Below, piece after piece: positions 3,978-38,112 of a stretch of DNA of 64,000 nt (position 1 is its first letter; each line of letters begins with the position of its first letter). Position numbers and translations under genes: made by a program. Origin of the DNA: an uncultured virus (IMG/VR IMGVR_UViG_3300028920_001041) (lineage: Duplodnaviria; Heunggongvirae; Uroviricota; Caudoviricetes); the IMG/VR virus record IMGVR_UViG_3300028920_001041; one strand, 5' to 3'. A model generated the notes under the pieces. It saw nothing but the letters and a program-made list of their open reading frames with translations. It did no database searches and had not been told where the DNA came from.

Positions 3978-4679
3978 TCATATACTCTTCTCAGAAACGA
4001 ATGCTCGATTCTTTGGTGTCCAATTATTCAGGTTTTCGAAATCATTTTTGAGAATAGCATACATAATCCTATTGGTGTATTCTTTATATGCAGAACGACC
4101 CTTAAGTTGTTTTATAATATCTTCAGCAGCTTTCTTATCAATAGATCGACTATAATTTTTATCATATAGTTTTGGTGCGCCGTCGGCAAAATTTAGAACA
4201 AATGTAATATCTGGATATTTATCTAAAAACTTACCAAAGAAGTCGGCACTATGATTATCTACAACTATATTCATTTGCCAATGAGGATTCTCTTTATACG
4301 CATCAATAACTTTCTGATCTATCTCACTTTTAACAAAGGGAGAACTAACAGCATGTATATCAATTGATTTAATATATTCTTTAAATATTTCATGATATCC
4401 CTTTATGATAAATGTACCATTAGTACAAATTTCTACAGGAACACCAACAGTAGTAAAGAATCTTGACCAAAAGTTTCGAGACAATAGACCTGGTTCTCCT
4501 CCAGACACTACATGACTTGGAAAGAGATGTTTAATCTTTCTAACTTCTTTTAATATTAATTCTTCATTGAATGTATCACCACTATAGGAAATACAATAGG
4601 GGCATTCCCAATTACAGCTATTCAATAACCCTACACAGACATTGTCAATATATAAAGTTGATCCCATATAGTTGTCCAT
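3978..4679 (-). CDS. radical SAM protein
   Basis: CNWECPYC, SGGEP, CTNG. Confidence 0.9.
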   Translation of the reverse strand: MDNYMGSTLYIDNVCVGLLNSCNWECPYCISYSGDTFNEELILKEVRKIKHLFPSHVVSGGEPGLLSRNFWSRFFTTVGVPVEICTNGTFIIKGYHEIFKEYIKSIDIHAVSSPFVKSEIDQKVIDAYKENPHWQMNIVVDNHSADFFGKFLDKYPDITFVLNFADGAPKLYDKNYSRSIDKKAAEDIIKQLKGRSAYKEYTNRIMYAILKNDFENLNNWTPKNRAFVSEKSI

Positions 4680-4701
4680 ATTAATATCACCTCACTTTAA
4701 A

Positions 4702-5043
4702 TTAATACTTAGCTGATGCGAATGTCAATGTAATTGGATCAACACCATCATTTGAAACAAAGATATCTGTCGATTCTCCATCATAAGCAAAGAACTTCAT
4801 ATTAGAGAATTCAGGATTCGTTGTGTTTCCAACCTTGATTTTAAATGGTGAATCAGAAAAGATGACCATCTGATTGATATTTGACGCCAAATTATGATCC
4901 ACTGTTGGTCCAGGTAGATTTGCCTCGCCAGCTTCATGAGAAATAGGTTCATGCATAATCATATTATCCATAAACCTAGAGGTTTTTTGTTGATCTTCAT
5001 CAGTTAATACTACACTCACACTCGTCTTCAATGTTTTCGACAT
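4702..5043 (-). CDS. hypothetical beta-rich protein (possibly structural)
   Basis: AAGGAG RBS before ATG 5043 (MSKTLKT); the ORF-track extension to 5184 crosses a non-coding hairpin region. Confidence 0.7.
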   Translation of the reverse strand: MSKTLKTSVSVVLTDEDQQKTSRFMDNMIMHEPISHEAGEANLPGPTVDHNLASNINQMVIFSDSPFKIKVGNTTNPEFSNMKFFAYDGESTDIFVSNDGVDPITLTFASAKY

Positions 5044-5059
5044 TTTAATTCTCCTTGAT

Positions 5060-5087
5060 TTAATATTCAATGTTTTTGTAAAGAAAT
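5060..5087 (+). promoter_or_regulatory. variant copy of the phage early-promoter motif
   Basis: TTAATATTCAA-N6-TGTAAAGAAAT, same spacing as the copies at 52971 and 53664. Confidence 0.55.
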
Positions 5088-5097
5088 TAGTACAATA

Positions 5098-5191
5098 ATG
5101 GGGTTTGTAACCGAGCTCCAGAAATAATTTGATAATTTTTGGTTTGGATGAAGTCCCACATATAATTGGGGCTTCATCCATCATTTTTTTT
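5098..5191 (+). ncRNA. putative ~95-nt small RNA antisense to the late operon
   Basis: promoter motif upstream; hairpins GGGGTTTG/CGAGCTCC and GGATGAAGTCCC/GGGGCTTCATCC followed by a T tract; G-U pairs favour the + strand. Confidence 0.45.
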
Positions 5192-6927: not shown

Positions 6928-6929
6928 AA

Positions 6930-7526: not shown

Positions 7527-7538
7527 AATATAAGCTCC

Positions 7539-10056: not shown

Positions 10057-10890
10057 TTAATGTAACTCATATCTTAACACCTCTATACAATTCTGACAAA
10101 TGGGGTCTATAGGTTGATTATTTATTAATTCCCCTTTAATTAATTTGTCAAAATTATCATCATTTAATTCAGTATGTGCTGTATATGAATGACTTTGTTT
10201 ACAAAATTTGATCCTTTTATTAACTAAATCAAAACCAACAAAGTGTAATTTTCTAAAGCATCGTTCTCTAAGTTGATTTAATTTCTTTTCATTGTAGTAA
10301 TGTAGTCCTCTAGAAAACAATTCTTCTTTATTGACGAAACTTGGAAATGTTTTGATTAAATAAACATAATCTTTTGGTTGCAAAGCATATTCAGTTTGAT
10401 CATCAGGAACCTTTGTGTAAAAATATTGAAACCACAATTTCATACCTAGTTTGTAATTCTTTTTTAGGAAACCTTTAAGTAATTTAACATTCTTTCTATG
10501 AATAACAATCAAGTGTGTTACTTTACGATTGATTATATCAATTTCTATTTCCTGATCTAATTCTGATACACAATGATATATTACTCTATCAATATCATCA
10601 TAATATTTTTCGAAATATCCTTTCTTAAAGAATTCTCCATTTGTTTCTACTACAACAGGATAGTTGTATGAGAAAATATGTTCTAATATATGTTCTGGGA
10701 TTAATCCAGTTTCACCACCAGATATATGCAAAGGTATATTGTTCTCCTTTGCCCATCTAGCAATCTTGAAATAATATTTAATTAAATAACTACGATCAAC
10801 ACTCTTTATATCCTGTATTCTAGGACGATCACAATATCCACAGGTCCAATTGCACCTTTCTCCTAATACTACACATATTAATTTCGGCAT
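10057..10890 (-). CDS. radical SAM protein (paralog of 3978..4679)
   Basis: CNWTCGYC, SGGE, ETNG; C-terminal CQNC. Confidence 0.9.
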   Translation of the reverse strand: MPKLICVVLGERCNWTCGYCDRPRIQDIKSVDRSYLIKYYFKIARWAKENNIPLHISGGETGLIPEHILEHIFSYNYPVVVETNGEFFKKGYFEKYYDDIDRVIYHCVSELDQEIEIDIINRKVTHLIVIHRKNVKLLKGFLKKNYKLGMKLWFQYFYTKVPDDQTEYALQPKDYVYLIKTFPSFVNKEELFSRGLHYYNEKKLNQLRERCFRKLHFVGFDLVNKRIKFCKQSHSYTAHTELNDDNFDKLIKGELINNQPIDPICQNCIEVLRYELH

Positions 10891-11873
10891 TTAATTGCCC
10901 TTTCAAGCTCATCTGAGATGATCCTTTTCTTCGGTACACACACTTCTGAATAACAGTTGTCTTCCTGACACATTATGGGATGATTAAAAATATAAAGATG
11001 TTCTCTAAAATTATCTTTAATGAGATTTAATATAGGTGGTCTATGATTTTTTCTCATTGTTAAACAGTAATGAACATCTCCATTAGAACACACTATTAGA
11101 TTCTTTCGTCCACATTGGCACCTGAAGTGTTTATAATTCGCTTTACCTTCACAATACAGTTTTATTTCGTTAAAAGAGACATTTTTTTCAACAATTTGTC
11201 CGTTATCATCATATTTTATTTGATATTTTTGGAGAACATCATTATGCTCTTGTTGAGAGATATACCATCGTAAATCTTCCATATCGAATTTCTGATCTGG
11301 ATGATAGATTATATCAATAGAACAATTAAGATTAGCTTGAACGTTCTCCATTTCTTTAAATTCTTGATACAGTCTTTTAATTTCTTCTTTGTATCTTGAA
11401 TCCCACATTACTTTTACTTGAACAAAATTAACATGTTTCGCTAGAAATAAAGCATTCTCTAAGAATCTTCCATTGTTAGAGAATTCGTAATGATACGACC
11501 CTAATATCTTTATATCTCTTCTTATTTCAATCATCGTTTTGTAAAAATCTAAAGGCATACCAAGATTTGTAAAGACTTGAAGAGGATATTTTGATTTTTT
11601 AAGTTGACTTAATATTTTAAAGAAATGTGGATCGATGGTTGGCTCTCCACCAAACAAAATAAGGTCAAGATCATAATTCTCATATAGATAATTATAAAAT
11701 TCTATTATTCTTGATTTATGTTCATAGGTATAAAATTGTTCGTGTCTATTCTCATATGTACAATAATGACACCTATAATTGCAGCGACTTGTTATGTCCC
11801 AATGGGAAAAGAATGAGTTCTTCTCCTCTATTAACATGGTGGAGCCTACTCCTAATATTTTTATCTGGTTCAT
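10878..11873 (-). CDS. radical SAM protein with C-terminal Cys cluster
   Basis: CNYRCHYC, FGGEP, CQCG...GDVHYC; likely start MNQIKILGVG. Confidence 0.9.
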   Translation of the reverse strand: MNQIKILGVGSTMLIEEKNSFFSHWDITSRCNYRCHYCTYENRHEQFYTYEHKSRIIEFYNYLYENYDLDLILFGGEPTIDPHFFKILSQLKKSKYPLQVFTNLGMPLDFYKTMIEIRRDIKILGSYHYEFSNNGRFLENALFLAKHVNFVQVKVMWDSRYKEEIKRLYQEFKEMENVQANLNCSIDIIYHPDQKFDMEDLRWYISQQEHNDVLQKYQIKYDDNGQIVEKNVSFNEIKLYCEGKANYKHFRCQCGRKNLIVCSNGDVHYCLTMRKNHRPPILNLIKDNFREHLYIFNHPIMCQEDNCYSEVCVPKKRIISDELERAIKCRN

Positions 11874-12819
11874 TATTCTTCCTTCTAAGAACCAATGTCT
11901 TTGGAAATTCTGTTTCACAACAAAACCCCATAAAATCACATATCATCCCATCTTCAAAATGATTTAGATAATCCTTAAAATTTTCTTTAACTAGATTAAG
12001 AATAGGCGTGATATGACTTTTACAGGGAAACACATCTGCATTAGAATTAACAAAAATGAGGTTCTTTCCGGCGGCACCACATTTATAGTAGTTGTTTGAT
12101 TCTAACATTGTTGTTCTCATTTCATTCCAAGATACATCTCGTTCTTTTTCTATACCATCCTCTAAATACTTTAAACGAAGAACTTCATAATCTTGTAATG
12201 GTAAAAACCAATCTAAATCTTCTGGTTTCCAATCTGCACCAGTGTCACCGATTTGATTTGGTAACACAAGATCGATAAAACATTCGTATCCTGTACGACT
12301 TTCAAATTTTTTAAAGAACTTATACTCTTCAATAGATTGTTCCTTTCGACGGGAATCTGCCATAATCTTCATACGAATCTTTTTGACATCCGAGCCAAGC
12401 AGATACCCTAATTTCTTAAGAAACATATCTTTATTTACTTTGTATATATGGTATGAGATTGATATTGTCATATCAGATCGTATAGACAATAACTTTTTAA
12501 AGAAATCAAGATCCTGACTAAGATTAGTGAATAATCTAATATAACTGTTTAATTTCGTCACTATTTTTAAGAAATCTGAATCGCAAGTTGGTTCACCACC
12601 ATACAACAATACTTTTTGTTCTCTAATTGTATCCATGTAATTAAAGAATTCTATTATTTTTTTCTTCGTCTCCCATGTTGCTAACTTTTCATTTCTGAAA
12701 ACATCACAATAATCACATTTATAATTACAATTACCAGTAACAAACCAATATGCATATAATATATTTGGGTTCTCAAACATTGTTTTCAACCCAACTTCTA
12801 AGACCTCTACTTTTTTCAT
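11773..12819 (-). CDS. radical SAM protein with C-terminal Cys cluster
   Basis: CNYKCDYC, YGGEP, CGAAG...DVFPC. Confidence 0.9.
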   Translation of the reverse strand: MKKVEVLEVGLKTMFENPNILYAYWFVTGNCNYKCDYCDVFRNEKLATWETKKKIIEFFNYMDTIREQKVLLYGGEPTCDSDFLKIVTKLNSYIRLFTNLSQDLDFFKKLLSIRSDMTISISYHIYKVNKDMFLKKLGYLLGSDVKKIRMKIMADSRRKEQSIEEYKFFKKFESRTGYECFIDLVLPNQIGDTGADWKPEDLDWFLPLQDYEVLRLKYLEDGIEKERDVSWNEMRTTMLESNNYYKCGAAGKNLIFVNSNADVFPCKSHITPILNLVKENFKDYLNHFEDGMICDFMGFCCETEFPKTLVLRRKNNEPDKNIRSRLHHVNRGEELILFPLGHNKSLQL

Positions 12820-25025: not shown

Positions 25026-25033
25026 ATTTCCCC

Positions 25034-28269: not shown

Positions 28270-28852
28270 TGATATATTCTTTATAATCAGATATTGCTCG
28301 ATGGTTAGTAAAACATTTCTTTAAGACAGCAGGTGGTACAGTTGCATAATCTGCTCCCTCTAACATTGCGAATATGACATCTGCTTTTTCACGAAAACTT
28401 GCAGCGATAATCCTTGTTTTATATTTGTAGTTCGTTCTAATCCTATTGCATTCATAAAGAAGACCTCTATTTTCATTTTTAGCAATCAGAACTATGCAAT
28501 AATCACAACCTAAGTCACAAGATTGATGAAATTGTAGTACATCATATGTTGTCGTTCCACATACTCTTATACTAGGAGTATCGACCAATTTTCTAATAAG
28601 ATCAAATTTTTGTTTGATTAATGGAACTTTATAAACCATTCTTCCTTTAGCTGCAGGTAAATCTTCCCATATTTGGTTTTCATTATCAATCTGGAGGAAT
28701 ATGTTATCAAACATTCCTGCCATTTTTGAGACAAAATCAGGAGTCTTAACATTCGCTTTTTTAAGAAGGTGAGGATTTGTTGTTACCCCCTCAACATAAT
28801 CTTTCCATTCGACAATTTGTTCTGTATCAGCAGTATCAATAAAGTACTTCAT
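28259..28852 (-). CDS. transaldolase / fructose-6-phosphate aldolase family
   Basis: FIDTA, GVTTNP, VYKVP (Schiff-base Lys), IAASFR, TVPP. Confidence 0.9.
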   Translation of the reverse strand: MKYFIDTADTEQIVEWKDYVEGVTTNPHLLKKANVKTPDFVSKMAGMFDNIFLQIDNENQIWEDLPAAKGRMVYKVPLIKQKFDLIRKLVDTPSIRVCGTTTYDVLQFHQSCDLGCDYCIVLIAKNENRGLLYECNRIRTNYKYKTRIIAASFREKADVIFAMLEGADYATVPPAVLKKCFTNHRAISDYKEYINGK

Positions 28853-29768: not shown

Positions 29769-30514
29769 TATTTCATAACTCCACAAGTTCTTAATATACT
29801 TATTAATTCAGTAATTGGTAATTGTGTATCAGCATCACATAATGCATTATCAGGATCTGTGTGACATTCTATGAACAACCCATCAGACCCACAAGCAATA
29901 GAAGATTTTGCTAAATCATAAGCATATGTATAATTGTTCCAATATTTATTGGGATGAGTGATATCAGTCACAACTTTAAACTTATAAGGGGTTTTCCCCT
30001 TCATTACTCTGATGAATCTAGGATCCATAATTAAGTAATCGAATCCAAAACTGGTTCCTCTATCTCCTATTATTAATTCAGCGTCTTTATTTAATTCAAA
30101 TACTTTAGTAACTATCTGCCCTATCTTAAAAGGATTAAGATGCTGTGGCTTTTTAATATGAATCGGAAGATCTCTTTTTACTGCCGCTTCAATTATAGAT
30201 GTTTGCATTGCTAAGAATGCAGGAATTTGAATCAAATCAACTCTATATGCATAATGATTAATTTGATCAACACTATGAAAATCTGTTGTTATCTTAATAT
30301 TGAATGATGTGCTGATATCTTCTAATGCCGCTAATCCATCTTCAAATCCTGGTCCATAATAATTTTCTAATTTAGTTCTATTATCCTTAATACAAGATGC
30401 TTTAAAATAAAAATCTATGTCTTTAATGTTTTTAATAACATCATTAATTTTCTTAGCTGTTATGAACAGCTTCTCAGGATCTTCTATTACACATGGACCA
30501 CAAATTAAAATCAT
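29768..30514 (-). CDS. kdsA: Kdo-8-phosphate synthase-like enzyme
   Basis: ICGPCVIE, FKAS..KDNRT, QIPAFL, IKKPQ, RGTSFG, DITH, FIECH..PDNALCD. Confidence 0.88.
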   Translation of the reverse strand: MILICGPCVIEDPEKLFITAKKINDVIKNIKDIDFYFKASCIKDNRTKLENYYGPGFEDGLAALEDISTSFNIKITTDFHSVDQINHYAYRVDLIQIPAFLAMQTSIIEAAVKRDLPIHIKKPQHLNPFKIGQIVTKVFELNKDAELIIGDRGTSFGFDYLIMDPRFIRVMKGKTPYKFKVVTDITHPNKYWNNYTYAYDLAKSSIACGSDGLFIECHTDPDNALCDADTQLPITELISILRTCGVMK

Positions 30515-31410
30515 ATTACTTCTCCAACAACCCAATCAATAAAAGTGCTGTATTTTGATCTATCTAAAATATACTCAAAATTATTATCGAACACATTCTT
30601 ATAAAAATTTTTAAATAATGACGAATTAAAAGGAATATTGTCATTATGAATATATGCCCCCGGTATAAATCTATCATGAACCTTTACAAAATCTTTAATA
30701 TCATCTATCCCATCACAATGCAGCCTTCCTTCTAATACAGGGGATATTATCTCTTTATTATTCTGAATTGCTTCTATTAAAGAATACGGCAAAGGATCGA
30801 TATAGTTTCTAGATTGTGGATAAACGTAATGAGTTATATTTGAGAAAAATACTTGTTGATCAAAAGTATGATGATGATTTAAAACATATTTAAACCTTTT
30901 ACTAAAATCATGTCTAGTATTTTGCCCCATCGTGTATACGTCAACATAAGAATATAAATCATTTAACATTCCTAAAAAATAATCAAACGAATCCCTTGTT
31001 ATATAGTTTCTTATATAAAATCCCAAACAAGGTCTAGTGACCTCTGATTGTTTCACTATAAAATCTGTAATCATAGGAATGAAATTCTTAATACTGTCAC
31101 ATTCATGAGTATAATAAAAACCATTATTACATGATTTATTTCCGAAGTAGTTATATTCATTTCGAACATATATTAAATAATCAATATCAATTAAAGAAAC
31201 AATATTAACAGGGAACGAATAATTACTCGGAACCTGAGTAACAAATATAAGCTTTTTGTATTTCTCATTTAACTCTCTTAAATTAACTACATCTTTTGAT
31301 TCTAGATGATCTAGATATTCCGAGTGTTCATTAGCCATTCTTTCTGAAACTGTAAATGCTCCACGTTTAAGATTTCCGTAGGCTACAGATATCAATAAGT
31401 ATTTCTTCAT
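30511..31410 (-). CDS. putative glycosyltransferase-like protein
   Basis: KRGAFTV N-terminal loop; DPLPYSLIEAIQNNKEI GT-B-like motif. Confidence 0.5.
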   Translation of the reverse strand: MKKYLLISVAYGNLKRGAFTVSERMANEHSEYLDHLESKDVVNLRELNEKYKKLIFVTQVPSNYSFPVNIVSLIDIDYLIYVRNEYNYFGNKSCNNGFYYTHECDSIKNFIPMITDFIVKQSEVTRPCLGFYIRNYITRDSFDYFLGMLNDLYSYVDVYTMGQNTRHDFSKRFKYVLNHHHTFDQQVFFSNITHYVYPQSRNYIDPLPYSLIEAIQNNKEIISPVLEGRLHCDGIDDIKDFVKVHDRFIPGAYIHNDNIPFNSSLFKNFYKNVFDNNFEYILDRSKYSTFIDWVVGEVI

Positions 31411-31427
31411 AATTATTAACAATAACG

Positions 31428-31456
31428 GGAGGTAAATATATGAAATATTTACCTCC
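31428..31456 (-). terminator. stem-loop between the Cys-repeat operon and the sugar cluster
   Basis: GGAGGTAAATAT/ATATTTACCTCC perfect 12-bp stem. Confidence 0.6.
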
Positions 31457-31470: not shown

Positions 31471-32064
31471 TTAACCAAACTGTGAGTAGAAACTGTCTGT
31501 CATTGATCTAACTTGTTCAACAGAGGTCGCAGTATCAAGATCTCTCGAAAACTGTAACCACTGTTTGTACATAAAATTACCTTCAGATAATTTATCTAAT
31601 AGTGCCAAATATTCTTCCAAAGAAGAAATCAGATCTGAATCCCCAGTGTTTACGATTTCTAAATACTTTTCTTCCCTATTTGAATCTGAAATAATATACC
31701 CAGCAGCACCAAGTTTATTATTTAAAAGTTGAAAAGAAAAGAATTCAAACATACTTATATATCCAACTCTATAAGCTACAAAATGTTTTGATCGAATTAT
31801 AGCACCTTGTCTTTCGGCAGCAATCGGATCCGGAATATCTTGAATAATTAAATCTCTAAATGTTAGAGGGTAATCGATACCTTTCGGGAAAAATACTTCT
31901 TTCCCGTTCTCCATAGCATCCTCGATCTGTTTCTTTAAATCATAGCTAGGAATCTCATAATATTTAACACCACTATGTTCAAAAATCTGACCTTCATCCC
32001 CCTCTAAAACAGAAATTACTCTGTAGTTGATACCAACATCAGCTACACCTGCTAGAATCTTCAT
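31471..32064 (-). CDS. hypothetical protein (possible fibre-assembly accessory protein)
   Basis: GGAGG RBS; last gene of the Cys-repeat operon; function is a positional guess. Confidence 0.7.
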   Translation of the reverse strand: MKILAGVADVGINYRVISVLEGDEGQIFEHSGVKYYEIPSYDLKKQIEDAMENGKEVFFPKGIDYPLTFRDLIIQDIPDPIAAERQGAIIRSKHFVAYRVGYISMFEFFSFQLLNNKLGAAGYIISDSNREEKYLEIVNTGDSDLISSLEEYLALLDKLSEGNFMYKQWLQFSRDLDTATSVEQVRSMTDSFYSQFG

Positions 32065-32078
32065 ATTTTCCTCCAAAA

Positions 32079-32591
32079 TTAATTATCTTTTAACATTGAA
32101 TCATTATTACATTGACAAGTACAATGATAATCACAATTGCATGTACATGAGTAATTACATTGACAAGTACATGAATAGTCACACTGACAAGTACATTGAT
32201 AATCACAATTGCATGTACATGAGTAATTACAATCACATACACATACACCAATATTTTCTTTATTGATAGGTTCTTTAGGATCTACATCATATTTACTTAA
32301 TAGTAATTCTATTTTCTCTAACAATTCAGGAAGTAATTCAACCATTTCAATTATTTCCTGTAGAGCTTTTATAAGCAATGGAGAGAATTGTCCGTAATCT
32401 ACTTTAAAATAATTTGATTGTTGATCTTTTGAAACTATCGAATATTTATCAGGACTAAATATCTTTGTTAAGTCTTGGGCTATTACACCAAAGAAAATTC
32501 TTTCATCTTCAATATGATCAGGATGTTTTTCTTTATCATATCGAAATTTAACTGCTTTAAACCGTTTAACTAATTCTAAATATTCTCCCAT
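32079..32591 (-). CDS. stand-alone body of a peptidase-S74 (tail-fibre chaperone) domain plus 6 Cys repeats
   Basis: KAVKFRY, FGVIAQDL, VDYGQFSPLLIKALQE; lacks the SDxxxK start; C-terminal CxCxCxY repeats. Confidence 0.8.
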   Translation of the reverse strand: MGEYLELVKRFKAVKFRYDKEKHPDHIEDERIFFGVIAQDLTKIFSPDKYSIVSKDQQSNYFKVDYGQFSPLLIKALQEIIEMVELLPELLEKIELLLSKYDVDPKEPINKENIGVCVCDCNYSCTCNCDYQCTCQCDYSCTCQCNYSCTCNCDYHCTCQCNNDSMLKDN

Positions 32592-33353
32592 TTAAAGATA
32601 TTCAACCTCAAGTTTAAGATTTTCATCTGAATAATTACAATCACATGTGCAATTGTAATCACAATCACAGGTACAATAGTTACAATCACAGGTACAATAG
32701 TTACAATCACAAGTACACGGATAATTACAGTTACATGTGCATGCATAGTTGCATTGACAAGTACATGCATAGTTGCATTGACAAGTACATGCATAATTAC
32801 ACTTACAAGTACAGGTATAATCACATTGGCAACTACAACCATAATTGCAATTACATACACATTCAGATTCTAGAAAATTCATCCTATCTCTTAACGCTAC
32901 AATAGGTTCATCTCTAATCTGATCACCATCTTCAAGAACTGAATTAGCTAAATCACCTGGATATGCCCAACCAGGAGATAACGTCGCAATTGCAGACCGT
33001 AACTCTAGAATCGTCTCATTATTAATAACCCCACCTGCAGAAACCGCTGGTGGTGGAACACCAGGTTCACCACGACGACCTGCTTCATTAAGAATAGCAG
33101 TTCTTAATTCGTTAATATGAACAGCTTTAATTTGAAATTGTGTAGTAAGACCAGGATCAGTCCATACTGTAGGCGTAACAGGATCTATTCTTCCAGTGTG
33201 AGTAGGACAAACATCACTTCCCCCAACATGGCCAGGGCAAGATGTAGTAACTGAATGTGCTGTACAAGCAATTGTAGCTGCGTGTCCGCTACAAGATGGT
33301 AAATTTGTGTGACCTGTGCAAGTTGTAGTATTTGAATGTGCCGTACAAGCCAT
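32592..33353 (-). CDS. Cys-rich repeat protein (putative fibre or rSAM substrate)
   Basis: CxxH N-terminal repeats, WTD...IKAVHINELRTAI, 10 CxCxC(N/D)Y repeats, ends YSDENLKLEVEYL. Confidence 0.88.
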   Translation of the reverse strand: MACTAHSNTTTCTGHTNLPSCSGHAATIACTAHSVTTSCPGHVGGSDVCPTHTGRIDPVTPTVWTDPGLTTQFQIKAVHINELRTAILNEAGRRGEPGVPPPAVSAGGVINNETILELRSAIATLSPGWAYPGDLANSVLEDGDQIRDEPIVALRDRMNFLESECVCNCNYGCSCQCDYTCTCKCNYACTCQCNYACTCQCNYACTCNCNYPCTCDCNYCTCDCNYCTCDCDYNCTCDCNYSDENLKLEVEYL

Positions 33354-33374: not shown

Positions 33375-34259
33375 TTATAGATATTCAATATCTCTTTTGA
33401 CTCTTTCATCTGAGTAATTACAGTTACATACACAAGGATAGTTGCAATTACAGGTACACGGATAGTTACAGTTACAGGTGCATGCATAGTTACAATTACA
33501 GGTACATGCGTAATTACATTGACAGGTACAACCATAGTTGCATTGACAGGTACATGCGTAGTTACAATTACAAGTACATGCGTAGTTGCATTGACAGGTA
33601 CATGCGTAATTACATTGACAAGTGCAACCATAGTTGCATTGACAGGTACAACCATAGTTGCATTGACAGGTACATGCGTAATTACATTGACATACACAGA
33701 CTTGTTCAAAAGTATTAAGCCCTGTTCGTAAACTTTCTAGTTGCTCATTTTGTATTACATCACCTTCCTCTAAATTCACAAGATCTAATGACGAATGTGC
33801 AGACCAAGGGCCAAACAGATTCAATGCTGCTCTGAATGATATAACAGTTGCATTATCAACTGCACTACCAACAGAAACTGCTGCAGGGATAGTCGCCCCG
33901 GCAGATCTTCTTGTATTTTCATTAGATATTGCAGTTCTTAGCTCATTAATATGTTGAGCTTTAATAGCAACACCAGTAAGAGCAGAATCTGTCCAAGTAG
34001 TAGGCGTTATAGGGGCTACAAATCCAGTACAACCACTCGCAGGATCAGTTGCTGAATGTGTTGCACAAGTTGTTGTGTTTGCATGACCAGAACAATATGT
34101 CGTTGCTGAATGTGCTGCACATGATACTGTGTTTGAATGTGATACGCAAGCTAATGTATTTGAATGTGCTGTACATGGACCCGCAGCATGTCCGTAACAT
34201 GATACTGTGTTTGAATGTGATACGCAAGCTAATGTATTTGAATGCGCCGTACAAGCCAT
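33375..34259 (-). CDS. Cys-rich repeat protein (paralog)
   Basis: CxxH N-terminal repeats, WTD...IKAQHINELRTAI, 12 CxCxCNY repeats, ends YSDERVKRDIEYL. Confidence 0.88.
   Translation of the reverse strand: MACTAHSNTLACVSHSNTVSCYGHAAGPCTAHSNTLACVSHSNTVSCAAHSATTYCSGHANTTTCATHSATDPASGCTGFVAPITPTTWTDSALTGVAIKAQHINELRTAISNENTRRSAGATIPAAVSVGSAVDNATVISFRAALNLFGPWSAHSSLDLVNLEEGDVIQNEQLESLRTGLNTFEQVCVCQCNYACTCQCNYGCTCQCNYGCTCQCNYACTCQCNYACTCNCNYACTCQCNYGCTCQCNYACTCNCNYACTCNCNYPCTCNCNYPCVCNCNYSDERVKRDIEYL
33414..33698. repeat. 24-bp coding tandem repeat (Cys octapeptide)
   Basis: units such as CATAGTTGCATTGACAGGTACAAC; related arrays at about 32630-32863 and 32105-32246. Confidence 0.9.
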
Positions 34260-34282: not shown

Positions 34283-35434
34283 CTATACAATCTGTTTTAA
34301 TGCTTTAGTAATTTTACCATTAATTTTATAAAATCTACAAAGTCTCGGTTGAGTAGCGTAATCTCTCCACTTATCAATATAAGTGTCTTTATTACTAGAT
34401 TCATACTTAACTGGGTTACATCGTAGACAATAATCTGCTTCACAATCCATACATTCAATAGGCTGATATCCAAAATTAGTATTATGCAATGTATGGGAAG
34501 CACTTAATTTATCTATAAAATCTTCATCTTTTAAATTGGAAACAATATGATCATCAACTTTATCGTCATAAACACTTCCATGACATTTATAAATTTTGCC
34601 ACCTACCCCGACACAAACCATATCTCTTCCGGCACAACAAAGAGCTTTATTAGGATTAAACCACGCAAAGAAGAACTGATTATTGTTCTTCTTACGAAAG
34701 TCTATCTCTTTTGCTGCGATTTCAGCAAGGACATTTTCTAGATCAACACAATATTCATCTATTTCTGCATCACTATATTTATCTAAGTGATAATAATCGA
34801 TTGTTGGAAAATAATTGCCAGAATGAAAGAATTGCTGACCTAGATATTGTTCATAAATATCTCTTATATCCTCATAAGCAGATAGCAAGTACTTAAAAGC
34901 ATCAGGAGGTATAGTTGACTTGACTGTACTTGGAATTCTATTATTATACACCTTTAAAATATTATTTCTAACTGTGTTTGATGTTAACACTCCATCTTTT
35001 CTGGTTCGATATATGTCATGAACAGGTATCCCATCATAAGACATCTGAATACAAAACTTAGGGTGTCCACCTTCAATAAATTGATCTTTAAGTCTAATAA
35101 GAGTATCCCAAATACCATCTAAATAATACCCATTACTAAAGATAAAAAATTTAACTCTAGGATTATTTTCATAATAGCTTATAATATTATTTACAAGCTT
35201 GTGGGCTAATGTGGGTTCGCCACCCCAAAGACCAATATTTAATGCATCATATTTTTCGTTAAAAAAATTCGAATTTAATAATTCGTCAGCTTTAGTCTTA
35301 AATAATTCAATGTCTTTAAAAAATGTATTCCTGAAATGTCCATCTTCAAAACAATATTTACATCCAAAGTTACAAGAATCTGTTAGTGTTAAATCTATGT
35401 TATACATACGAACTTGATTGAAAGTTTTACTCAT
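34283..35434 (-). CDS. radical SAM/SPASM peptide-maturase-like enzyme
   Basis: CNFGCKYC, WGGEP, SYDG, CCAG...KIYKCH...CMDC...CLRC...C. Confidence 0.9.
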   Translation of the reverse strand: MSKTFNQVRMYNIDLTLTDSCNFGCKYCFEDGHFRNTFFKDIELFKTKADELLNSNFFNEKYDALNIGLWGGEPTLAHKLVNNIISYYENNPRVKFFIFSNGYYLDGIWDTLIRLKDQFIEGGHPKFCIQMSYDGIPVHDIYRTRKDGVLTSNTVRNNILKVYNNRIPSTVKSTIPPDAFKYLLSAYEDIRDIYEQYLGQQFFHSGNYFPTIDYYHLDKYSDAEIDEYCVDLENVLAEIAAKEIDFRKKNNNQFFFAWFNPNKALCCAGRDMVCVGVGGKIYKCHGSVYDDKVDDHIVSNLKDEDFIDKLSASHTLHNTNFGYQPIECMDCEADYCLRCNPVKYESSNKDTYIDKWRDYATQPRLCRFYKINGKITKALKQIV

Positions 35435-35448
35435 TTCATCTCCACTTT

Positions 35449-36456
35449 CTAAAATTGACTGAACTTCACTTTTGTCTCTTTATTTGCATAAGTTATACCA
35501 GTTGTCGGAGATAAATACGCATTACCAACGCTTGTTGATTTATCACACCGTCCACAAGCAACGCATGTTACACCACAAAAAGGAATATTATATAGTAAAT
35601 ACACATGTTCTAAGTATGGTCGTAATTGATTTCGCAATACCTCAGCATAACCTGGGGGACCAACAGAATCTAAATCTTTATGAGCAAAACTAAGAGCAAT
35701 TTTATCACAAGTAGGCCATCTTTCACATATTTCGATCATATCTTCTACAACTTTATCATAGTTCCCAGCATGAACTGTATAACTCATACTAAAGAATATA
35801 TAATGTTTAACAAGATTATCAACTGCTCGTTCAACATATGGTTTAGAACTTGCACCATTAGGAAACTTTCTACGATAATGTCCTGACCCATCATAACTTA
35901 CTTCGATACTAAGATATACATTCTTATTCTCAACTGATGCCTTTAATTCTTTATATTGTAGAATTAATCGTTCATCTAGGAACAATAATGCGTTAGTGGT
36001 TATAGGAATTGCCCAACCTCCACCTTTAGGTAAATCAGCTGCTTTTCTAACTAAATATTCATAAAGATCAAATTTTAACAAAGGTTCTCCACCCATTACA
36101 ACAATACATGAATTTAGATTTCCCTCTCTTTCGTGAATTTCATGAAGAAAAGAATCTAACATCTCTGTAGAACAATTAGCATGATCTGGAAGACCTTCGC
36201 GACTATCTTCTTCATAACAATATTCGCAACGAAGATTACAATTAGTATTTAAATAAACAACATTGGTTCTTGTCGTTCCTTGTGCATCATTAATCTGTTT
36301 AACTAATTTTTGTTCACCATATATTGTATTATCTTGATCACACCCTTGCCCATCTTTGCATGACTGACAAGAATCGCATACTTGATTTTTTTCACCTAAT
36401 GTCTCTTTAATATCAGTCATAAATATATTTATATCTTCCTTAGTTACATGACTCAT
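35449..36456 (-). CDS. radical SAM protein (maturase-like core, Cys-rich N-terminus, no full SPASM)
   Basis: CNLRCEYC, MGGEP, TTNA, SYDG; N-terminal CDSCQSC...C. Confidence 0.9.
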   Translation of the reverse strand: MSHVTKEDINIFMTDIKETLGEKNQVCDSCQSCKDGQGCDQDNTIYGEQKLVKQINDAQGTTRTNVVYLNTNCNLRCEYCYEEDSREGLPDHANCSTEMLDSFLHEIHEREGNLNSCIVVMGGEPLLKFDLYEYLVRKAADLPKGGGWAIPITTNALLFLDERLILQYKELKASVENKNVYLSIEVSYDGSGHYRRKFPNGASSKPYVERAVDNLVKHYIFFSMSYTVHAGNYDKVVEDMIEICERWPTCDKIALSFAHKDLDSVGPPGYAEVLRNQLRPYLEHVYLLYNIPFCGVTCVACGRCDKSTSVGNAYLSPTTGITYANKETKVKFSQF

Positions 36457-36459
36457 TTA

Positions 36460-36984
36460 TCACTTCCCCATTTTAGACCGTATTTTTGAGACAAGATCCT
36501 TAACATCACTTTCTATCTCATTAACTGATGTTGGATTACCAACACCAATGCCCTGCCCTGATGCATTTTTACCATGAATAGGACAGTCACAATCTACACC
36601 TTGACCCATAGCATTCTTACCATGAATAGGGCAATTCTCATCACTTGAAGTATTACTACCCTGTAATCCGCCAGCGCCATGCCCTCGACATTCTTGAGGA
36701 TCAGCATTTATATGACCTACACAAATCTGGTCTTTGTTTACATCCGCTTCTGACGCCTCACTAGCAGTACTAAATGATAGAACCTTACTACCACTAGGTG
36801 TTGGCGCCATATTATCTAGCGAACAAGATTGTTCTTCTTTCGGTTGACAACATTCAACAATTTTAAGAAGTTTATCAGATATATACAAACATAGATCACT
36901 AAGACTATTATCAAATTCTTTTATTTCTTGTGATACTTTTAACATTCCTTGCGCCGAATTAAAGATTTTAGCTTGGTCCATCAT
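36460..36984 (-). CDS. Cys/His/Gly-rich protein with CPIHGKNA repeat
   Basis: two CPIHGKNAxGQG repeats; CxGH motifs. Confidence 0.75.
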   Translation of the reverse strand: MMDQAKIFNSAQGMLKVSQEIKEFDNSLSDLCLYISDKLLKIVECCQPKEEQSCSLDNMAPTPSGSKVLSFSTASEASEADVNKDQICVGHINADPQECRGHGAGGLQGSNTSSDENCPIHGKNAMGQGVDCDCPIHGKNASGQGIGVGNPTSVNEIESDVKDLVSKIRSKMGK

Positions 36985-36993
36985 TCGCCTCCA

Positions 36994-38112
36994 TTAGCCA
37001 ACATTTTGAATAGATCCTTTTACCATTTCTTGGAATAATTCATTGTCTTTTAATTCATGAACAATTCTCATCGATTGTTTATATAAGATATGTAATAATT
37101 CACAAACACCATCTACTGGTTCACAATAGTTAGCATTTGATTCATCAGTTTTTAATTGCTGAAAAGTACATCCAGCGTTACAATATTGATATAATTCACA
37201 TGTTTGACATTTATCATAGACTCGAGGATTAGCAACTTGTGGCGATTGCATAATATTAACAGTGTCACCAAATTCGATATTATTTATTGAATCATATAAT
37301 GGATTAATATCATTTGATCCAAATCTTGCACATGGATACACTAAACCATCTGGCATAAAACCAGCACCATTAACTCCAGCAAAACACCCAAATGGTCTTT
37401 TACCATAAGTTGTTCCAAAAAGAAGATCTAAAATATATAATTGGAAGAATCCAATAGTGGTTCTTATACCACTTTTAATATATTTTATCATTTGGGCTGC
37501 CAGTTTTTCTGCCTCTATTTCAAATCTCTTTACATCATCTTCTGTCCAGATATTATCTCGAACAATTGAGAAATCTGGACTTGGTAAATTAAATTCCTCA
37601 ACGAACCATTTATAGTTATCAACTAAAGTATCGATACTCTCAGGAGATACCATCACTTTACACCCTCCTTGTCCACTAAATCTAGACTTAAGAGGCTCTT
37701 CTAAATAAAGACTTAGACTAGAACTTCCGTCTTTAAGAGGTCTATTATGTTGATTCCATAGTCCGTCAAAAGATAGCGAAATCGCCAAATTATTTTTTTG
37801 AAAGTAATCCCACTTGTCACCATCCACAAACTCTAAACCATTAGTCATTGCTATAATAAAAGTACATCTAGGATCTTTTTTAAAGATTGGAACAATATAT
37901 TCAATTAATTTCCAATTTAATAGTGGTTCTCCACCAAATAAAGCTGCGTGATAATCATGTCGATTATATTTTTTCATCATTTTCGGCAGAGTATTATAAT
38001 AATGCGCATCAAAAACCTCTCGAGTCATATCTTTTGGCTTCTGATTAATATAACAATATGTACACGCCATATTACATCGTTCTGTAAGTACTAATTGAAA
38101 CTCAAATGACAT
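36994..38112 (-). CDS. radical SAM/SPASM peptide-maturase-like enzyme
   Basis: CNMACTYC, FGGEP, SFDG, GCFAG...GLVYPC...CQTC...CNAGC...C. Confidence 0.92.
   Translation of the reverse strand: MSFEFQLVLTERCNMACTYCYINQKPKDMTREVFDAHYYNTLPKMMKKYNRHDYHAALFGGEPLLNWKLIEYIVPIFKKDPRCTFIIAMTNGLEFVDGDKWDYFQKNNLAISLSFDGLWNQHNRPLKDGSSSLSLYLEEPLKSRFSGQGGCKVMVSPESIDTLVDNYKWFVEEFNLPSPDFSIVRDNIWTEDDVKRFEIEAEKLAAQMIKYIKSGIRTTIGFFQLYILDLLFGTTYGKRPFGCFAGVNGAGFMPDGLVYPCARFGSNDINPLYDSINNIEFGDTVNIMQSPQVANPRVYDKCQTCELYQYCNAGCTFQQLKTDESNANYCEPVDGVCELLHILYKQSMRIVHELKDNELFQEMVKGSIQNVG

What the first reader, a model, noticed from the sequence alone, without database searches (positions are those of the whole stretch)
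3978..38112. Fourteen radical SAM genes in several paralog sub-families
Seen: CxxxCxxC motifs in the ORFs at 3978, 10057, 10878, 11773, 12816, 13738, 14816, 16300, 21071, 22032, 28854, 34283, 35449 and 36994. They group as a trio sharing an N-terminal (I/V)LxVG and K(V/I)MxDSR (10878/11773/12816), a pair with FKHNEHQ (21071/22032), a B12-type pair, a pair 3978/10057, and the maturase-like trio. Inference: local expansion by duplication, and an anaerobic host with good Fe-S and cobalamin supply.
Basis: partly seen in the sequence, partly recalled or inferred. Interest (0 to 1): 0.7.

Follow-up and report, generated by a model that had tools for sequence, protein, structure and literature searches.

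The report
Radical-SAM-rich island beside phage tail fibres
A giant phage packs 14 genuine radical-SAM enzyme genes next to its tail-fibre genes, three of them paired with cysteine-ladder fibre proteins and the rest mixed with sugar-building genes: a recurring, still unexplained phage kit that probably decorates a surface structure used in host recognition.

Summary
All 14 named ORFs carry CxxxCxxC and match Pfam Radical_SAM (12 of 14 above the curated cut-off). None of the 58 other ORFs scanned does. The trio, the FKHNEHQ pair and the B12-like pair are real paralogs. 3978/10057 are only loosely related, and the three "maturases" are old, distinct lineages.

The genes lie on one strand directly behind tail-fibre genes of a phage contig of about 306 kb. 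Two parts emerge. (1) A conserved core: three SPASM-type maturases, cysteine-ladder fibre proteins ([CxCxCNYx]n) and a few partner genes, found together in 30 of 36 viral loci. (2) A variable array of 10 radical-SAM genes mixed with Kdo synthesis, an amidinotransferase, a sugar dehydratase/epimerase and GT-B-like genes. An 11th radical-SAM gene, 3978, lies apart.

Duplications are mostly old and shared with related phages. Equally dense arrays occur elsewhere: 10 in 17 kb, and 11-12 in Campylobacter phages (PMC2853527). The host could not be determined, and an anaerobic host does not follow from these genes.

The likely function is stapling of fibre proteins plus tailoring of an unusual surface glycan. 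No experiment has shown either.

The parts
36994..38112 (-). Radical SAM/SPASM maturase A (core). It is the first gene after the tail-fibre genes.
   Evidence: PF04055 38.3 bits. NCBIfam SPASM domain TIGR04085 36.4 bits against a cut-off of 27. Best family is PapB, 135 bits against a cut-off of 340. Nearest solved structure is CteB 5wgg, E 2e-15. 37% identical to CP220 gp023. Orthologs at 38-59% identity sit in the same position in many viral loci.
36460..36984 (-). Small protein with four CxxH motifs, lying between maturases A and B. It could be a helper or a second substrate.
   Evidence: Sequence and motif count. Homologs in the same position in G002 and L107. No significant family hit.
35449..36456 (-). 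Radical SAM maturase B (core), with a short C-terminal Cys cluster.
   Evidence: PF04055 46.5 bits. PapB family 50 bits, phrog_19488. Ortholog at 43% in G002. 26% identical to CP220 gp099.
34283..35434 (-). Radical SAM/SPASM maturase C (core).
   Evidence: PF04055 30.3 bits. CX2CX5CX3C motif at residue 328. Hits to PapB, the anaerobic sulfatase maturase and the CXXX-repeat maturase families, all below their cut-offs. Ortholog at 55% in G002.
33375..34259 (-). Cysteine-ladder fibre protein. It has 8 CxxH motifs, a helical middle domain, 12 CxCxC(N/D)Y repeats and a C-terminal SDERVKRDIEYL tail.
   Evidence: Family alignment A2. More than 324 relatives, none with a Pfam domain. AF2 model: middle domain pLDDT about 90, repeats about 72 and modelled as 5-residue strands.
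32592..33353 (-). Second cysteine-ladder fibre protein, with 10 repeats. It ends with the first 12 residues of a Peptidase_S74 chaperone domain.
   Evidence: 50% identical to 33375. Repeat count. Read through the in-frame TAA with X, the S74 match covers profile positions 1-53 of 58 at 32.9 bits.
32079..32591 (-). The remainder of the split S74 chaperone domain, followed by 6 cysteine-ladder repeats.
   Evidence: PF13884 25.7 bits, profile positions 16-53. Tail-fibre and tail-spike PHROG hits. Repeat count.
31471..32076 (-). Conserved partner of unknown function (phrog_25260). It follows the ladder protein in most loci.
   Evidence: phrog_25260 E 2.8e-16. Present in 23 of 36 ladder-centred loci. 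33% identical to CP220 gp015, which lies next to the baseplate hub.
31428..31456 (-). 12-bp-stem hairpin in the 48-nt gap between the core and the sugar/radical-SAM array. It may be a terminator or attenuator.
   Evidence: Terminator-like scan. The total number of such sites is not above the shuffled controls.
30511..31422 (-). Glycosyltransferase-like protein.
   Evidence: No Pfam hit. Protein-atlas neighbours include viral GT1 clusters at score 0.95 with 171 shared features; this is a lead only. Orthologs at 47-50% in L003 and G002.
29768..30535 (-). Kdo-8-phosphate synthase-like protein (KdsA).
   Evidence: PF00793 140 bits. NF003543 219 bits against a cut-off of 242.
28854..29786 (-). Radical SAM/SPASM enzyme embedded in the Kdo block.
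   Evidence: PF04055 64 bits and SPASM PF13186 38.8 bits. The C-terminal domain is nearest to BtrN 4m7s, E 1.7e-7. Its orthologs are flanked by KdsA, an FSA-like gene and KdsB in 3 of 3 further viral loci.
28259..28852 (-). Transaldolase / fructose-6-phosphate aldolase-like protein.
   Evidence: PF00923 59.6 bits. TIGR00875 61.9 bits, below its cut-off.
26685..27443 (-). CMP-Kdo synthetase-like cytidylyltransferase (KdsB).
   Evidence: PF02348 87 bits. NF003952 140 bits against a cut-off of 193.
25034..25867 (-). GT-B-like transferase. It is one of three paralogs, with 18686 and 19605.
   Evidence: Atlas structure neighbours are GT4 and Kdo-transferase families at TM 0.59-0.63; this is a lead only. 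Paralogy at 24-29% identity, E 1e-9 to 1e-10. phrog_14526. 23% identical to CP220 gp077.
24051..25037 (-). NDP-sugar 4,6-dehydratase/epimerase of the SDR family.
   Evidence: PF16363 173 bits and PF01370 160 bits.
22988..24085 (-). Amidinotransferase.
   Evidence: Solved relatives over the full length: SxtG E 8e-53, inosamine-phosphate amidinotransferase 1bwd E 2e-49, AGAT E 1e-47. 35% identical to CP220 gp086.
22032..22991 (-). Radical SAM enzyme, FKHNEHQ pair, member 1.
   Evidence: PF04055 40.5 bits. 37% identical to 21071. Hits to the N-terminal-twitch and tungsten-cofactor maturase families, below their cut-offs.
21071..22051 (-). Radical SAM enzyme, FKHNEHQ pair, member 2.
   Evidence: PF04055 40.1 bits. 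Pairwise identity. Homologs in CP220 are gp083 and gp084.
20512..21078 (-). Polysaccharide-deacetylase-like protein.
   Evidence: PF01522 21.4 bits, below the cut-off of 23.1. phrog_26430 E 7e-11. Conserved in L003, G002, L061 and others.
17781..20525 (-). Three genes: 19605 and 18686 (GT-B-like paralogs of 25034) and 17781 (conserved, function unknown).
16300..17769 (-). B12-type (class B-like) radical SAM enzyme, copy 1.
   Evidence: PF04055 57 bits; PF02310 20.5 bits, below the cut-off of 32.1. The best NCBIfam families are all B12-binding radical-SAM methyltransferases, far below their cut-offs. Fifteen of 16 remote homologs carry PF02310.
14816..16285 (-). B12-type radical SAM enzyme, copy 2. 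This is the more diverged copy.
   Evidence: 63% identical to 16300. 57-59% identical to the outside homologs P0141-P0143.
13738..14835 (-). Radical SAM enzyme with HxsC-like architecture.
   Evidence: PF04055 64.9 bits. HxsC4 matched over its full length at 65.8 bits, against a cut-off of 500. Nearest solved structure is BlsE 7vob, E 4e-9. phrog_27238 E 2e-53. Ortholog at 60% in L081.
12816..13952 (-). Radical SAM trio member. The likely start is at about 13772.
11773..12819 (-). Radical SAM trio member, with a twitch/SPASM-type fold.
   Evidence: AF2 model pLDDT 76.6. Foldseek neighbours are MoaA, SuiB, CteB, BlsE and BtrN at E 1e-8 to 2e-6.
10878..11939 (-). Radical SAM trio member. The likely start is at about 11873.
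10057..10890 (-). Small radical SAM enzyme. It is the last gene of the array.
   Evidence: PF04055 26.8 bits, just below the cut-off. Orthologs at 46% in L081 and L002, in the same position. The family has four copies in G002.
3978..4679 (-). Small radical SAM enzyme lying outside the island, beyond a two-component system.
   Evidence: PF04055 26.3 bits. 33% identical to 10057 over 116 aa. It sits on a long branch and is not sister to 10057.
38124..49471 (-). Tail-fibre gene block immediately upstream on the same strand. The protein of 48191 ends in two CxCxCNY repeats.
   Evidence: PHROG tail-fibre hits, for example 39741 to phrog_11011 at E 4.5e-39. Repeat count. Gaps between genes.

Best explanation
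The 14 genes are true radical-SAM enzymes. Thirteen of them belong to one co-directional, tightly packed island that continues the tail-fibre operon of a phage of about 306 kb. This is a host-recognition-type island made of two separable parts.

Part 1 is a conserved core. Three SPASM-class maturases (36994, 35449, 34283) act on cysteine-ladder fibre proteins (33375, 32592, 32079, and the C-terminal tip of 48191). They most likely install thioether cross-links between Cys and the Asn/Asp of the repeated (N/D)YxC motif. This would covalently staple a beta-strand ladder that folds with the help of a split S74 chaperone domain.

Part 2 is a variable array. Ten radical-SAM enzymes of twitch/SPASM and B12-like classes work together with Kdo-8-P synthase, CMP-Kdo synthetase, an aldolase, an NDP-sugar dehydratase/epimerase, an amidinotransferase, a deacetylase-like protein and four GT-B-like transferases. 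Together they would make and transfer a heavily tailored sugar. The most likely acceptor is the phage's own fibre proteins; the host envelope is the alternative.

Shown here: enzyme family identity, gene order, paralogy, and conservation of the core across many viral contigs. Inferred: the chemistry, the substrates and where the glycan ends up.
For: Identity. PF04055 matches 14 of 14 ORFs.

Operon-like layout. 33 of 38 gene junctions from 10057 to 49471 are 23 nt or less, or overlap. PHROG tail-fibre hits lie directly upstream.

The core is conserved.
- Of 36 viral loci found by the ladder motif alone, 30 have a maturase-like gene within 10 kb and 23 have the 31471 partner.
- In the other direction, 22 of 33 loci whose maturase is at least 33% identical to 36994 have a CxCxC(N/D)Y ladder nearby.
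- The same gene order is seen in G002 and L086.

Maturase class. 36994 best matches the PapB family and CteB.

Precedents for the chemistry.
- NxxcB makes a beta-thioether from Cys to Asn in NxxC motifs (PMC9389541, passages).
- CrpC installs thioethers on a cysteine-rich protein (PMC13692751, abstract).

The ladder proteins are fibre-like. They carry an S74 chaperone signature and give tail-fibre PHROG hits.

Sugar role of the array.
- 28854 sits inside a KdsA/FSA-like/KdsB block in 3 of 3 further loci.
- In L222 that block lies between the ladder gene and 31471.
- The nearest solved relatives are sugar-tailoring enzymes: BlsE for 13738, BtrN for 28854, and inosamine-phosphate amidinotransferase for 22988.
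- 25034 has GT-B-like structural neighbours.

The array is a separate module. 23 of 78 loci found by trio-like radical-SAM patterns hold 3 or more such genes, and 0 of 78 have a ladder or a maturase within 10 kb.
Against: No experiment bears on any step.

The maturases score far below the curated cut-offs of every named family (PapB 135 against 340), so the type of cross-link is a guess.

The GT-B assignment rests on atlas look-alikes at TM about 0.6 with no Pfam hit.

The fold of the trio does not separate peptide from sugar substrates. Its neighbours include MoaA, SuiB, CteB, BlsE and BtrN.

The accessory arrays occur without ladder genes in 78 of 78 trio-centred loci. Nothing therefore ties their product to the fibre proteins except adjacency in this phage and its nearer relatives.

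The authors who described similar islands in pelagimyophages proposed modification of the host O-chain instead (PMC7029224, passages).

Six of 36 ladder loci lack a maturase within reach. CP220 and CPt10 keep the parts dispersed around the genome.
Confidence: 0.45

Rival explanations
1. Host-surface remodelling. The sugar genes, transferases and accessory radical-SAM enzymes alter the host's LPS or capsule during infection, for example to block superinfection. Only the three core maturases would concern the virion.
For: This is the published interpretation for the glycosyltransferase-rich host-recognition clusters of pelagimyophages. In the two most similar of those genomes the clusters differ only by added radical-SAM gene cassettes (PMC7029224, passages). 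Kdo is an LPS sugar, and KdsA- and KdsB-like genes are present. The accessory arrays occur without ladder genes in 78 of 78 loci.
Against: No lipid-carrier, flippase, polymerase or ligase gene turned up in the Pfam scans of the island. The island continues the late tail-fibre block on the same strand with minimal gaps. In L222 the Kdo block is inserted between the ladder gene and its partner 31471.
Confidence: 0.25
2. Protein hypermodification only. Most or all 14 radical-SAM enzymes act on the cysteine-ladder proteins (several cross-link types, epimerisation, C-methylation), as in heavily modified RiPPs. The sugar genes would be unrelated neighbours.
For: The trio's fold neighbours include the peptide enzymes SuiB, CteB, SkfB and EpeE. 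The B12-like pair hits RiPP C-methyltransferase families weakly. 13738 resembles HxsC of a peptide system. There are 30 ladder repeats with three Cys each, giving many possible sites.
Against: Accessory arrays of 3 or more genes occur in 23 of 78 loci with no ladder or maturase within 10 kb. 28854 is locked into a Kdo block. The nearest solved relatives of 13738, 28854 and 22988 are sugar or cyclitol tailoring enzymes.
Confidence: 0.15
3. DNA hypermodification. The transferases glycosylate phage DNA bases and the radical-SAM enzymes tailor the adduct, protecting the genome from restriction.
For: A T4 glucosyltransferase cluster is among the weak atlas neighbours of 25034, at score 0.88. Radical-SAM enzymes take part in thymidine hypermodification (PMC8989533, seen only as a search listing and abstract start).
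Against: No base hydroxymethylase, kinase or other hypermodification hallmark was found among the 58 non-radical-SAM ORFs scanned. The island is placed among fibre genes. The atlas score is below the tool's own 0.9 bar.
Confidence: 0.06
4. General metabolic help for the host at low oxygen, or production of a diffusible guanidino-sugar or RiPP compound.
For: [quoted passage not shown] A cyanophage paper read a similar gene set (aminotransferase, radical-SAM maturase, amidinotransferase; the same paper also names kdsA and kdsB in that genome) as antibiotic synthesis (PMC12801897, passages).
Against: None of the 14 reaches the cut-off of any housekeeping radical-SAM family. No export or immunity genes were seen. 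The tight and conserved linkage to fibre proteins is unexplained by this reading.
Confidence: 0.06

Closest known systems
Radical-SAM-rich Campylobacter phages CP220 and CPt10 (Firehammervirus; Timms et al. 2010, PMC2853527)
   Same: The paper reports 11 and 12 radical-SAM proteins, and the Pfam search here finds 11 in CP220. Homologous genes are present:
- gp023 is 37% identical to 36994.
- gp099 is 26% identical to 35449.
- gp083 and gp084 match the FKHNEHQ pair.
- gp086 (amidinotransferase) is 35% identical to 22988.
- gp077 matches 25034 and gp015 matches 31471.
- CPt10 gp145 holds a CTCDCNY ladder.
   Different: In those phages the parts are scattered over the genome, and their radical-SAM block lies behind the baseplate spike and PAAR genes. 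Here 13 of the 14 sit in one 28-kb run behind the tail fibres. The window also adds a trio, a B12-like pair and a Kdo block. Identities are only 23-37%.
Host recognition cluster of pelagi- and cyanomyophages (Zaragoza-Solas et al. 2020, PMC7029224)
   Same: A hypervariable island within the structural genes. It holds tail fibres, many glycosyltransferases, LPS-type sugar genes and radical-SAM gene cassettes that come and go between close relatives (passages).
   Different: That paper describes no cysteine-ladder proteins and no maturases in the passages I read. Whether its cassettes are homologous to these genes was not tested. Its proposed target is the host O-chain.
CrpC/CrpA of Methanococcus voltae (Dieter et al. 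2026, PMC13692751)
   Same: A SPASM radical-SAM enzyme shown to install thioether (ranthionine) cross-links on a cysteine-rich protein rather than on a short peptide (abstract).
   Different: It is an archaeal cellular system, not a virion protein. Sequence relatedness to the phage maturases was not tested here. The repeat pattern of CrpA was not compared.
Ranthipeptide and beta-thioether maturases PapB and NxxcB, and the SCIFF maturase CteB
   Same: 36994 is best matched by the PapB family (135 bits) and by CteB among solved structures. The ladder repeat contains (N/D)YxC, which is an NxxC motif, in 24 places across four proteins. NxxcB links Cys to Asn C-beta (PMC9389541, passages).
   Different: Scores lie far below the family cut-offs. 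The substrates are 170-430-residue fibre-type proteins with 2-12 repeats, not leader-core peptides. No RRE-type N-terminal domain is apparent, since the CxxxCxxC motif begins at residue 13 or 21 in 36994 and 34283.
Sugar- and cyclitol-tailoring radical-SAM enzymes BlsE and BtrN, and amidinotransferase StrB1, of antibiotic pathways
   Same: They are the nearest solved relatives of 13738, of the C-terminal domain of 28854, and of 22988.
   Different: For the two radical-SAM enzymes the E-values are only 1e-7 to 1e-9 over part of the protein. There is no evidence that the same substrates are used.

Membership tests
Radical SAM superfamily (PF04055) | A CxxxCxxC motif that binds the [4Fe-4S] cluster near the start of the core. 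| tested here: met
   14 of 14 ORFs.
Radical SAM superfamily (PF04055) | Profile match at or above the Pfam gathering score of 29.5 bits. | tested here: met
   12 of 14 pass. 3978 (26.3 bits) and 10057 (26.8 bits) fall just short, but both hit phage radical-SAM PHROG 13987 at E 4e-8 and 1e-9.
SPASM/twitch subgroup | A C-terminal auxiliary Fe-S cluster domain (PF13186 or TIGR04085, or the CX2CX5CX3C motif). | tested here: met
   28854: PF13186 38.8 bits. 36994: TIGR04085 36.4 bits against a cut-off of 27. 34283 and 36994 carry the Cys motif. The trio, 13738, the FKHNEHQ pair and 35449 have 4-10 C-terminal Cys but no model hit, which is inconclusive for them.
Class B (cobalamin-dependent) radical SAM | An N-terminal B12-binding domain (PF02310) ahead of the radical-SAM core. 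| tested here: inconclusive
   16300 scores 20.5 bits against a cut-off of 32.1, and 14816 gives no hit. The core lies at residues 220-375, behind an N-terminal domain of about 200 residues. Fifteen of 16 remote homologs (P0147-P0162) carry PF02310, but the 5 close ones do not. There is no solved relative.
PapB family ranthipeptide maturase (NF047865) | Score at or above the curated cut-off of 340 bits. | tested here: not met
   36994 scores 135.4 bits, 34283 scores 75.8 and 35449 scores 50.0. They work-alike at best and are not members.
CXXX-repeat maturase system (TIGR04115 / TIGR04119) | Score at or above the cut-offs (350 and 150 bits), with a target that has Cys at every fourth residue. 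| tested here: not met
   34283 scores 38.1 and 23.2 bits, and 36994 scores 58.8 bits. The target repeat here is CxCxCNYx, with period 8 and three Cys per unit.
NxxC / NxxcB beta-thioether system | A substrate with NxxC motifs and an NxxcB-type enzyme. | tested here: inconclusive
   The (N/D)YxC motif is present 24 times. Enzyme homology to NxxcB could not be tested, because no model or sequence of it was among the hits.
Peptidase_S74 intramolecular chaperone (PF13884) on the ladder proteins | A complete domain with the N-terminal Ser-x4-Lys cleavage signature. | tested here: met
   It is met only across two ORFs. 32592 ends in SDENLKLEVEYL and 32079 supplies the rest. Read through the single in-frame TAA with X, the match is 32.9 bits over profile positions 1-53 of 58. 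That Ser and Lys form the catalytic dyad is recalled knowledge, not from a call.
Kdo activation pathway (KdsA, KdsB) | Equivalog-level scores for both enzymes. | tested here: not met
   KdsA-like: 219 bits against 242 (NF003543). KdsB-like: 140 bits against 193 (NF003952). Both are clearly of these Pfam families, but the sugar made may differ from Kdo.
Amidinotransferase (pentein fold) | Full-length similarity to characterised amidinotransferases. | tested here: met
   22988 matches SxtG, StrB1 and AGAT at E 8e-53 to 1e-47 over residues 3-364.

The most novel reading that the evidence does not exclude
Large phages of many lineages build part of their host-recognition apparatus by radical chemistry. 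A trimeric cysteine-ladder fibre would be covalently stapled by three dedicated SPASM enzymes and released by a split, trans-acting S74 chaperone. It would then be decorated with a guanidinylated, Kdo-type glycan whose structure is diversified by a fast-turning-over cassette of up to a dozen radical-SAM tailoring enzymes. That cassette would be the viral counterpart of an O-antigen locus, setting host range or shielding the particle.
Probability: 0.25. Interest if true: 0.85.

Novelty: new variant of a known kind. Interest (0 to 1): 0.6.

Why it matters
Radical-SAM-rich phages have been on record since 2010 without a functional explanation (PMC2853527). Radical-SAM cassettes in marine phage host-recognition islands were noted in 2020 (PMC7029224).

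This window shows the fullest consolidated version I could find. In one place it links three peptide-stapling-type enzymes to a widespread, unnamed family of cysteine-ladder fibre proteins, and a variable radical-SAM array to a sugar pathway.

If the reading holds, it has three consequences:
- Virions would carry enzymatically cross-linked and unusually glycosylated parts.
- The role of a large class of unexplained phage genes would become testable by simple co-expression and mass spectrometry.
- It would offer new radical enzymes that act on whole proteins and on sugars.

It also warns against reading radical-SAM counts as a marker of anaerobic hosts.

Tried and rejected
Searches that returned nothing or were uninformative:
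- Whole-genome search of the window's own assembly: no genome is held.
- Megablast of 38-58 kb against isolated phages: no match.
- Viral-contig scan with 16300 alone: no pattern match.
- tblastn of the ladder protein against isolated phages: no match, probably because of the low-complexity filter. The motif scan later found CP21 and CPt10.
- PDB sequence searches: nothing for 16300 or 27430.
- Foldseek of the ladder model against the PDB: no match at E <= 0.001. There were only weak beta-solenoid look-alikes (ice-binding proteins, left-handed beta-helix proteins), so the fold stays unassigned.
- Earlier-findings look-ups by place and by sequence: nothing.

Homotrimer prediction of the ladder protein (residues 75-294, three copies): the tool gave no verdict, score 0.00. 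This counts neither for nor against trimerisation.

Host inference:
- No tRNA genes.
- The histidine-kinase scan of genome contigs gave only 27-39% identities spread over Proteobacteria, Nitrospiraceae, Desulfobacula, Methanomicrobia, Rickettsiales and Clostridia. This is uninformative.

Promoter and terminator scans: counts were not above the shuffled controls.

Readings I considered and dropped:
- 3978 as an anaerobic ribonucleotide reductase activase. Its best NCBIfam hit is NrdG2 at 30.5 bits against a cut-off of 131, and no NrdD is in the window.
- The N-terminal CxxH repeats as a His-Xaa-Ser (Hxs) target. The spacing does not fit.

Literature: four searches for a described link between radical SAM, cysteine-rich proteins and tail fibres or virion proteins found none. 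The supplementary tables of the IBB_35 virion proteome (PMC3322345) are old .doc files and were not read. They may show whether the ladder protein is in particles.

Full report
**The observation.** The window is AT-rich (30-41% GC). From about base 390 to 49471 nearly all ORFs lie on the minus strand. I translated 52 minus-strand ORFs. The motif also appears in a TAL/FSA-like ORF (28259), in the Cys repeats of 32592, and a second time in 35449, so the motif alone over-counts. Pfam PF04055 matches 14 of 14. Twelve reach the gathering score, and 3978 and 10057 fall just short at 26.3 and 26.8 bits. None of the other 37 minus-strand ORFs or 21 further ORFs hits PF04055. NCBIfam places none of the 14 in a named equivalog; every hit is far below its cut-off.

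**Paralog groups.** BLASTP among the 14 confirms three of the groups:
- The trio 10878/11773/12816 is 34-35% identical over the full length.
- The B12-like pair is 63% identical.
- The FKHNEHQ pair is 37% identical.

The pair 3978/10057 shares only 33% over 116 residues. The three "maturases" share 24-28%. The quoted motifs are present. ORF calls 10878 and 12816 carry false N-terminal extensions, as alignment A1 shows.

**What the sequence is.** The proteins encoded at 38124-49471 hit tail-fibre PHROGs, for example 39741 to the long tail fibre distal subunit at E 4.5e-39. The window's own proteins are recorded on a contig of 306,383 bases. This is therefore a jumbo-phage fragment. No whole genome is held, and no isolated phage matches at the DNA level. 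From 49471 down to 10057, 33 of 38 gene junctions are 23 nt or less, or overlap. The island thus continues the fibre gene block.

**The core: maturases and ladder proteins.** Directly after the last fibre gene come, in order:
- 36994, a SPASM enzyme whose best family is PapB and whose nearest solved structure is CteB;
- 36460, a small CxxH protein;
- 35449 and 34283, two further maturase-type enzymes;
- three cysteine-rich proteins, with 12, 10 and 6 CxCxC(N/D)Y repeats.

Two more repeats end the fibre-like protein 48191.

The ladder family has more than 324 relatives in metagenomes and no Pfam domain. In alignment A2 it shows an N-terminal CxxH repeat, a helical middle domain, the ladder, and in most members a C-terminal SDxxLKxxIxY(L/I/M/F) tail. 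An AlphaFold model gives the middle domain pLDDT about 90 and the ladder about 72, as a row of 5-residue strands. Foldseek found no significant match for it.

The C-terminal tail is the start of a Peptidase_S74 chaperone domain, and 32079 begins with the rest. Read through the single in-frame TAA with X, the match covers profile positions 1-53 of 58. This marks the ladder proteins as fibre-type proteins.

**How conserved the core is.** A motif scan of IMG/VR for CTC[NQD]CNY gave 36 loci; some are near-identical pairs. Of these, 30 have a gene like 36994, 35449 or 34283 within 10 kb, and 23 have the partner 31471. The six without a maturase are L106 (ladder gene at the contig end), L108, L118, L119, L122 and L123.

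In the other direction, 382 viral stretches encode relatives of 36994, and the best 76 loci were kept. Of the 33 loci with at least 33% identity, 22 have the ladder nearby and two more have other extremely Cys-dense frames. Of the 43 more distant loci, 1 has this ladder and 24 have a 60-residue window with 12 or more Cys; loci without such a window peak at 5-9.

The gene order fibre tip, 36994, 36460, 35449, 34283, ladder, 31471, 30511, 25034 is the same in G002. It is nearly the same in L086.

There are chemical precedents. NxxcB links Cys to Asn C-beta in NxxC motifs, PapB makes beta-thioethers and CteB gamma-thioethers (PMC9389541, passages). CrpC puts thioethers on a cysteine-rich protein (PMC13692751, abstract). 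The ladder holds 24 (N/D)YxC motifs.

**The variable array.** Between 31422 and 10057 lie 10 radical-SAM genes. They are mixed with:
- KdsA-like, KdsB-like and FSA/TAL-like genes;
- an SDR sugar dehydratase/epimerase;
- a deacetylase-like and a weak sulfotransferase-like gene;
- a clear amidinotransferase, matching SxtG and StrB1 at E 1e-49 to 1e-53;
- three paralogous proteins whose atlas structure neighbours are GT-B transferases, plus a fourth GT-like protein.

28854 is flanked by KdsA, an FSA-like gene and KdsB in 3 of 3 further viral loci. In L222 that block lies between the ladder gene and 31471. The nearest solved relatives are BlsE for 13738 and BtrN for the C-terminal domain of 28854. 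The trio's model is a twitch/SPASM-type fold whose neighbours include both peptide and sugar enzymes.

One result cuts two ways. Of 78 viral loci found through trio-like patterns, 23 hold three or more array-type genes, and none has a ladder or a maturase within 10 kb. The array is therefore a module of its own. This argues against the accessory enzymes acting on the ladder. It also removes any general tie between their product and the fibre.

**How unusual is the count of fourteen?** The same Pfam search finds:
- 11 matches in CP220 (the paper reports 11, and 12 in CPt10; PMC2853527, passages);
- 16 matches in 15 frames in the 207-kb contig G002;
- 5 to 11 in seven other large viral contigs.

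L053 has 10 radical-SAM ORFs among 17 scanned in about 17 kb, and L020 has 7 of 19. Fourteen in 34 kb is at the high end but is not unique. CP220 and CPt10 share homologs of the core and of several array genes at 23-37% identity. CPt10 gp145 carries a CTCDCNY ladder that the record annotates only as a 21-bp repeat. Pelagimyophage host-recognition clusters hold fibres, glycosyltransferases and radical-SAM cassettes that differ between close relatives (PMC7029224, passages).

**Duplication history.** I built trees from ORFs of at least 150 aa whose best hit covered at least 60% of the window protein. Identical rows were merged, and L080, L039, L099-L101 were replaced by one merged G002 stretch.
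- Each trio gene groups with orthologs from other contigs (support 97-100). The three clades form one group (support 94). L081 and L084 keep the tandem order. The triplication is old and shared.
- The B12-like pair are sisters in a small tree. With closer homologs the order is unresolved. L081 lacks the pair between 17781 and 13738, which shows gene flux.
- 3978 is not sister to 10057.
- The FKHNEHQ pair is unresolved.
- Other phages expanded other families: G002 has four 10057-like genes.

**Host.** There are no tRNAs, and the kinase scan was uninformative. A close homolog of 16300 is labelled by its source as coming from a Heimdallarchaeota MAG, which may be a mis-binned viral contig. Carriers of related modules infect microaerophilic Campylobacter. 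Similar cassettes are reported in phages of SAR11, which I recall to be aerobic. An anaerobic host is therefore possible but not implied.

**Verdict.** The best reading is a host-recognition-type island. Three enzymes staple ladder fibre proteins. The others tailor an unusual sugar that GT-B-like enzymes pass to a surface structure, either the fibre itself or the host envelope. Notes from this scan describe similar ladder-plus-maturase modules in other phages. They are leads and not independent evidence.

Noticed in passing
window 32079-33353 (-), junction at 32589-32594: A Peptidase_S74 chaperone domain is split by one in-frame TAA followed directly by ATG. 32592 ends with the first 12 residues (SDENLKLEVEYL) and 32079 supplies the rest. 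Most members of the ladder family end at the same point (alignment A2). The stop therefore looks conserved, which suggests a chaperone supplied in trans, or read-through.
   Followed up: partly
window 6349-10050 (-): A phage-encoded two-component set lies between radical-SAM genes 3978 and 10057. It comprises a PAS-HisKA-HATPase histidine kinase (7539-9353), two receiver-only response regulators with coiled-coil tails (6349, 6930; 26% identical to each other) and a DnaJ-domain protein (9346).
   Followed up: partly
L144:6087-7691 (CPt10 gp145, NC_027996.1 160086-161690): The 21-bp 'repeat region x' annotated in CPt10 encodes a seven-residue CTCDCNY ladder inside a 534-residue hypothetical protein. 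That protein lies near a T4 gp63-like 'tail fiber attachment catalyst' and a radical-SAM gene.
   Followed up: partly
window 38124-38741 and 39741-43355 (-): Two fibre proteins share a 131-residue C-terminal module (53% identity) with a weak Peptidase_G2 autoproteolytic-domain hit. This would be a second kind of self-cleaving chaperone end in the same fibre set.
   Followed up: no
window 54088-54552 (+): An ORF with a short match to the ribosomal protein L7/L12 C-terminal domain (27.3 bits, cut-off 25.9).
   Followed up: no
window 59745-60362 (+) and 61788-63119 (+): A DenV-like pyrimidine-dimer DNA glycosylase and an HNH endonuclease-containing ORF in the plus-strand block.
   Followed up: no
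L053 (IMG/VR contig of 21.7 kb) and L020: Very dense radical-SAM arrays: 10 of 17 and 7 of 19 ORFs. Several have an N-terminal SPASM domain. A QueC-like gene, a UDP-glucose dehydrogenase and an Asp/Asn beta-hydroxylase-like gene lie nearby. There are no ladder proteins within reach.
   Followed up: partly
window 31428-31456 (-): A hairpin with a 12-bp stem in the only sizeable gap (48 nt) between the maturase/ladder core and the sugar/radical-SAM array.
   Followed up: no
window 389-856 (-): A GNAT acetyltransferase ORF at the far end of the minus-strand block.
   Followed up: no
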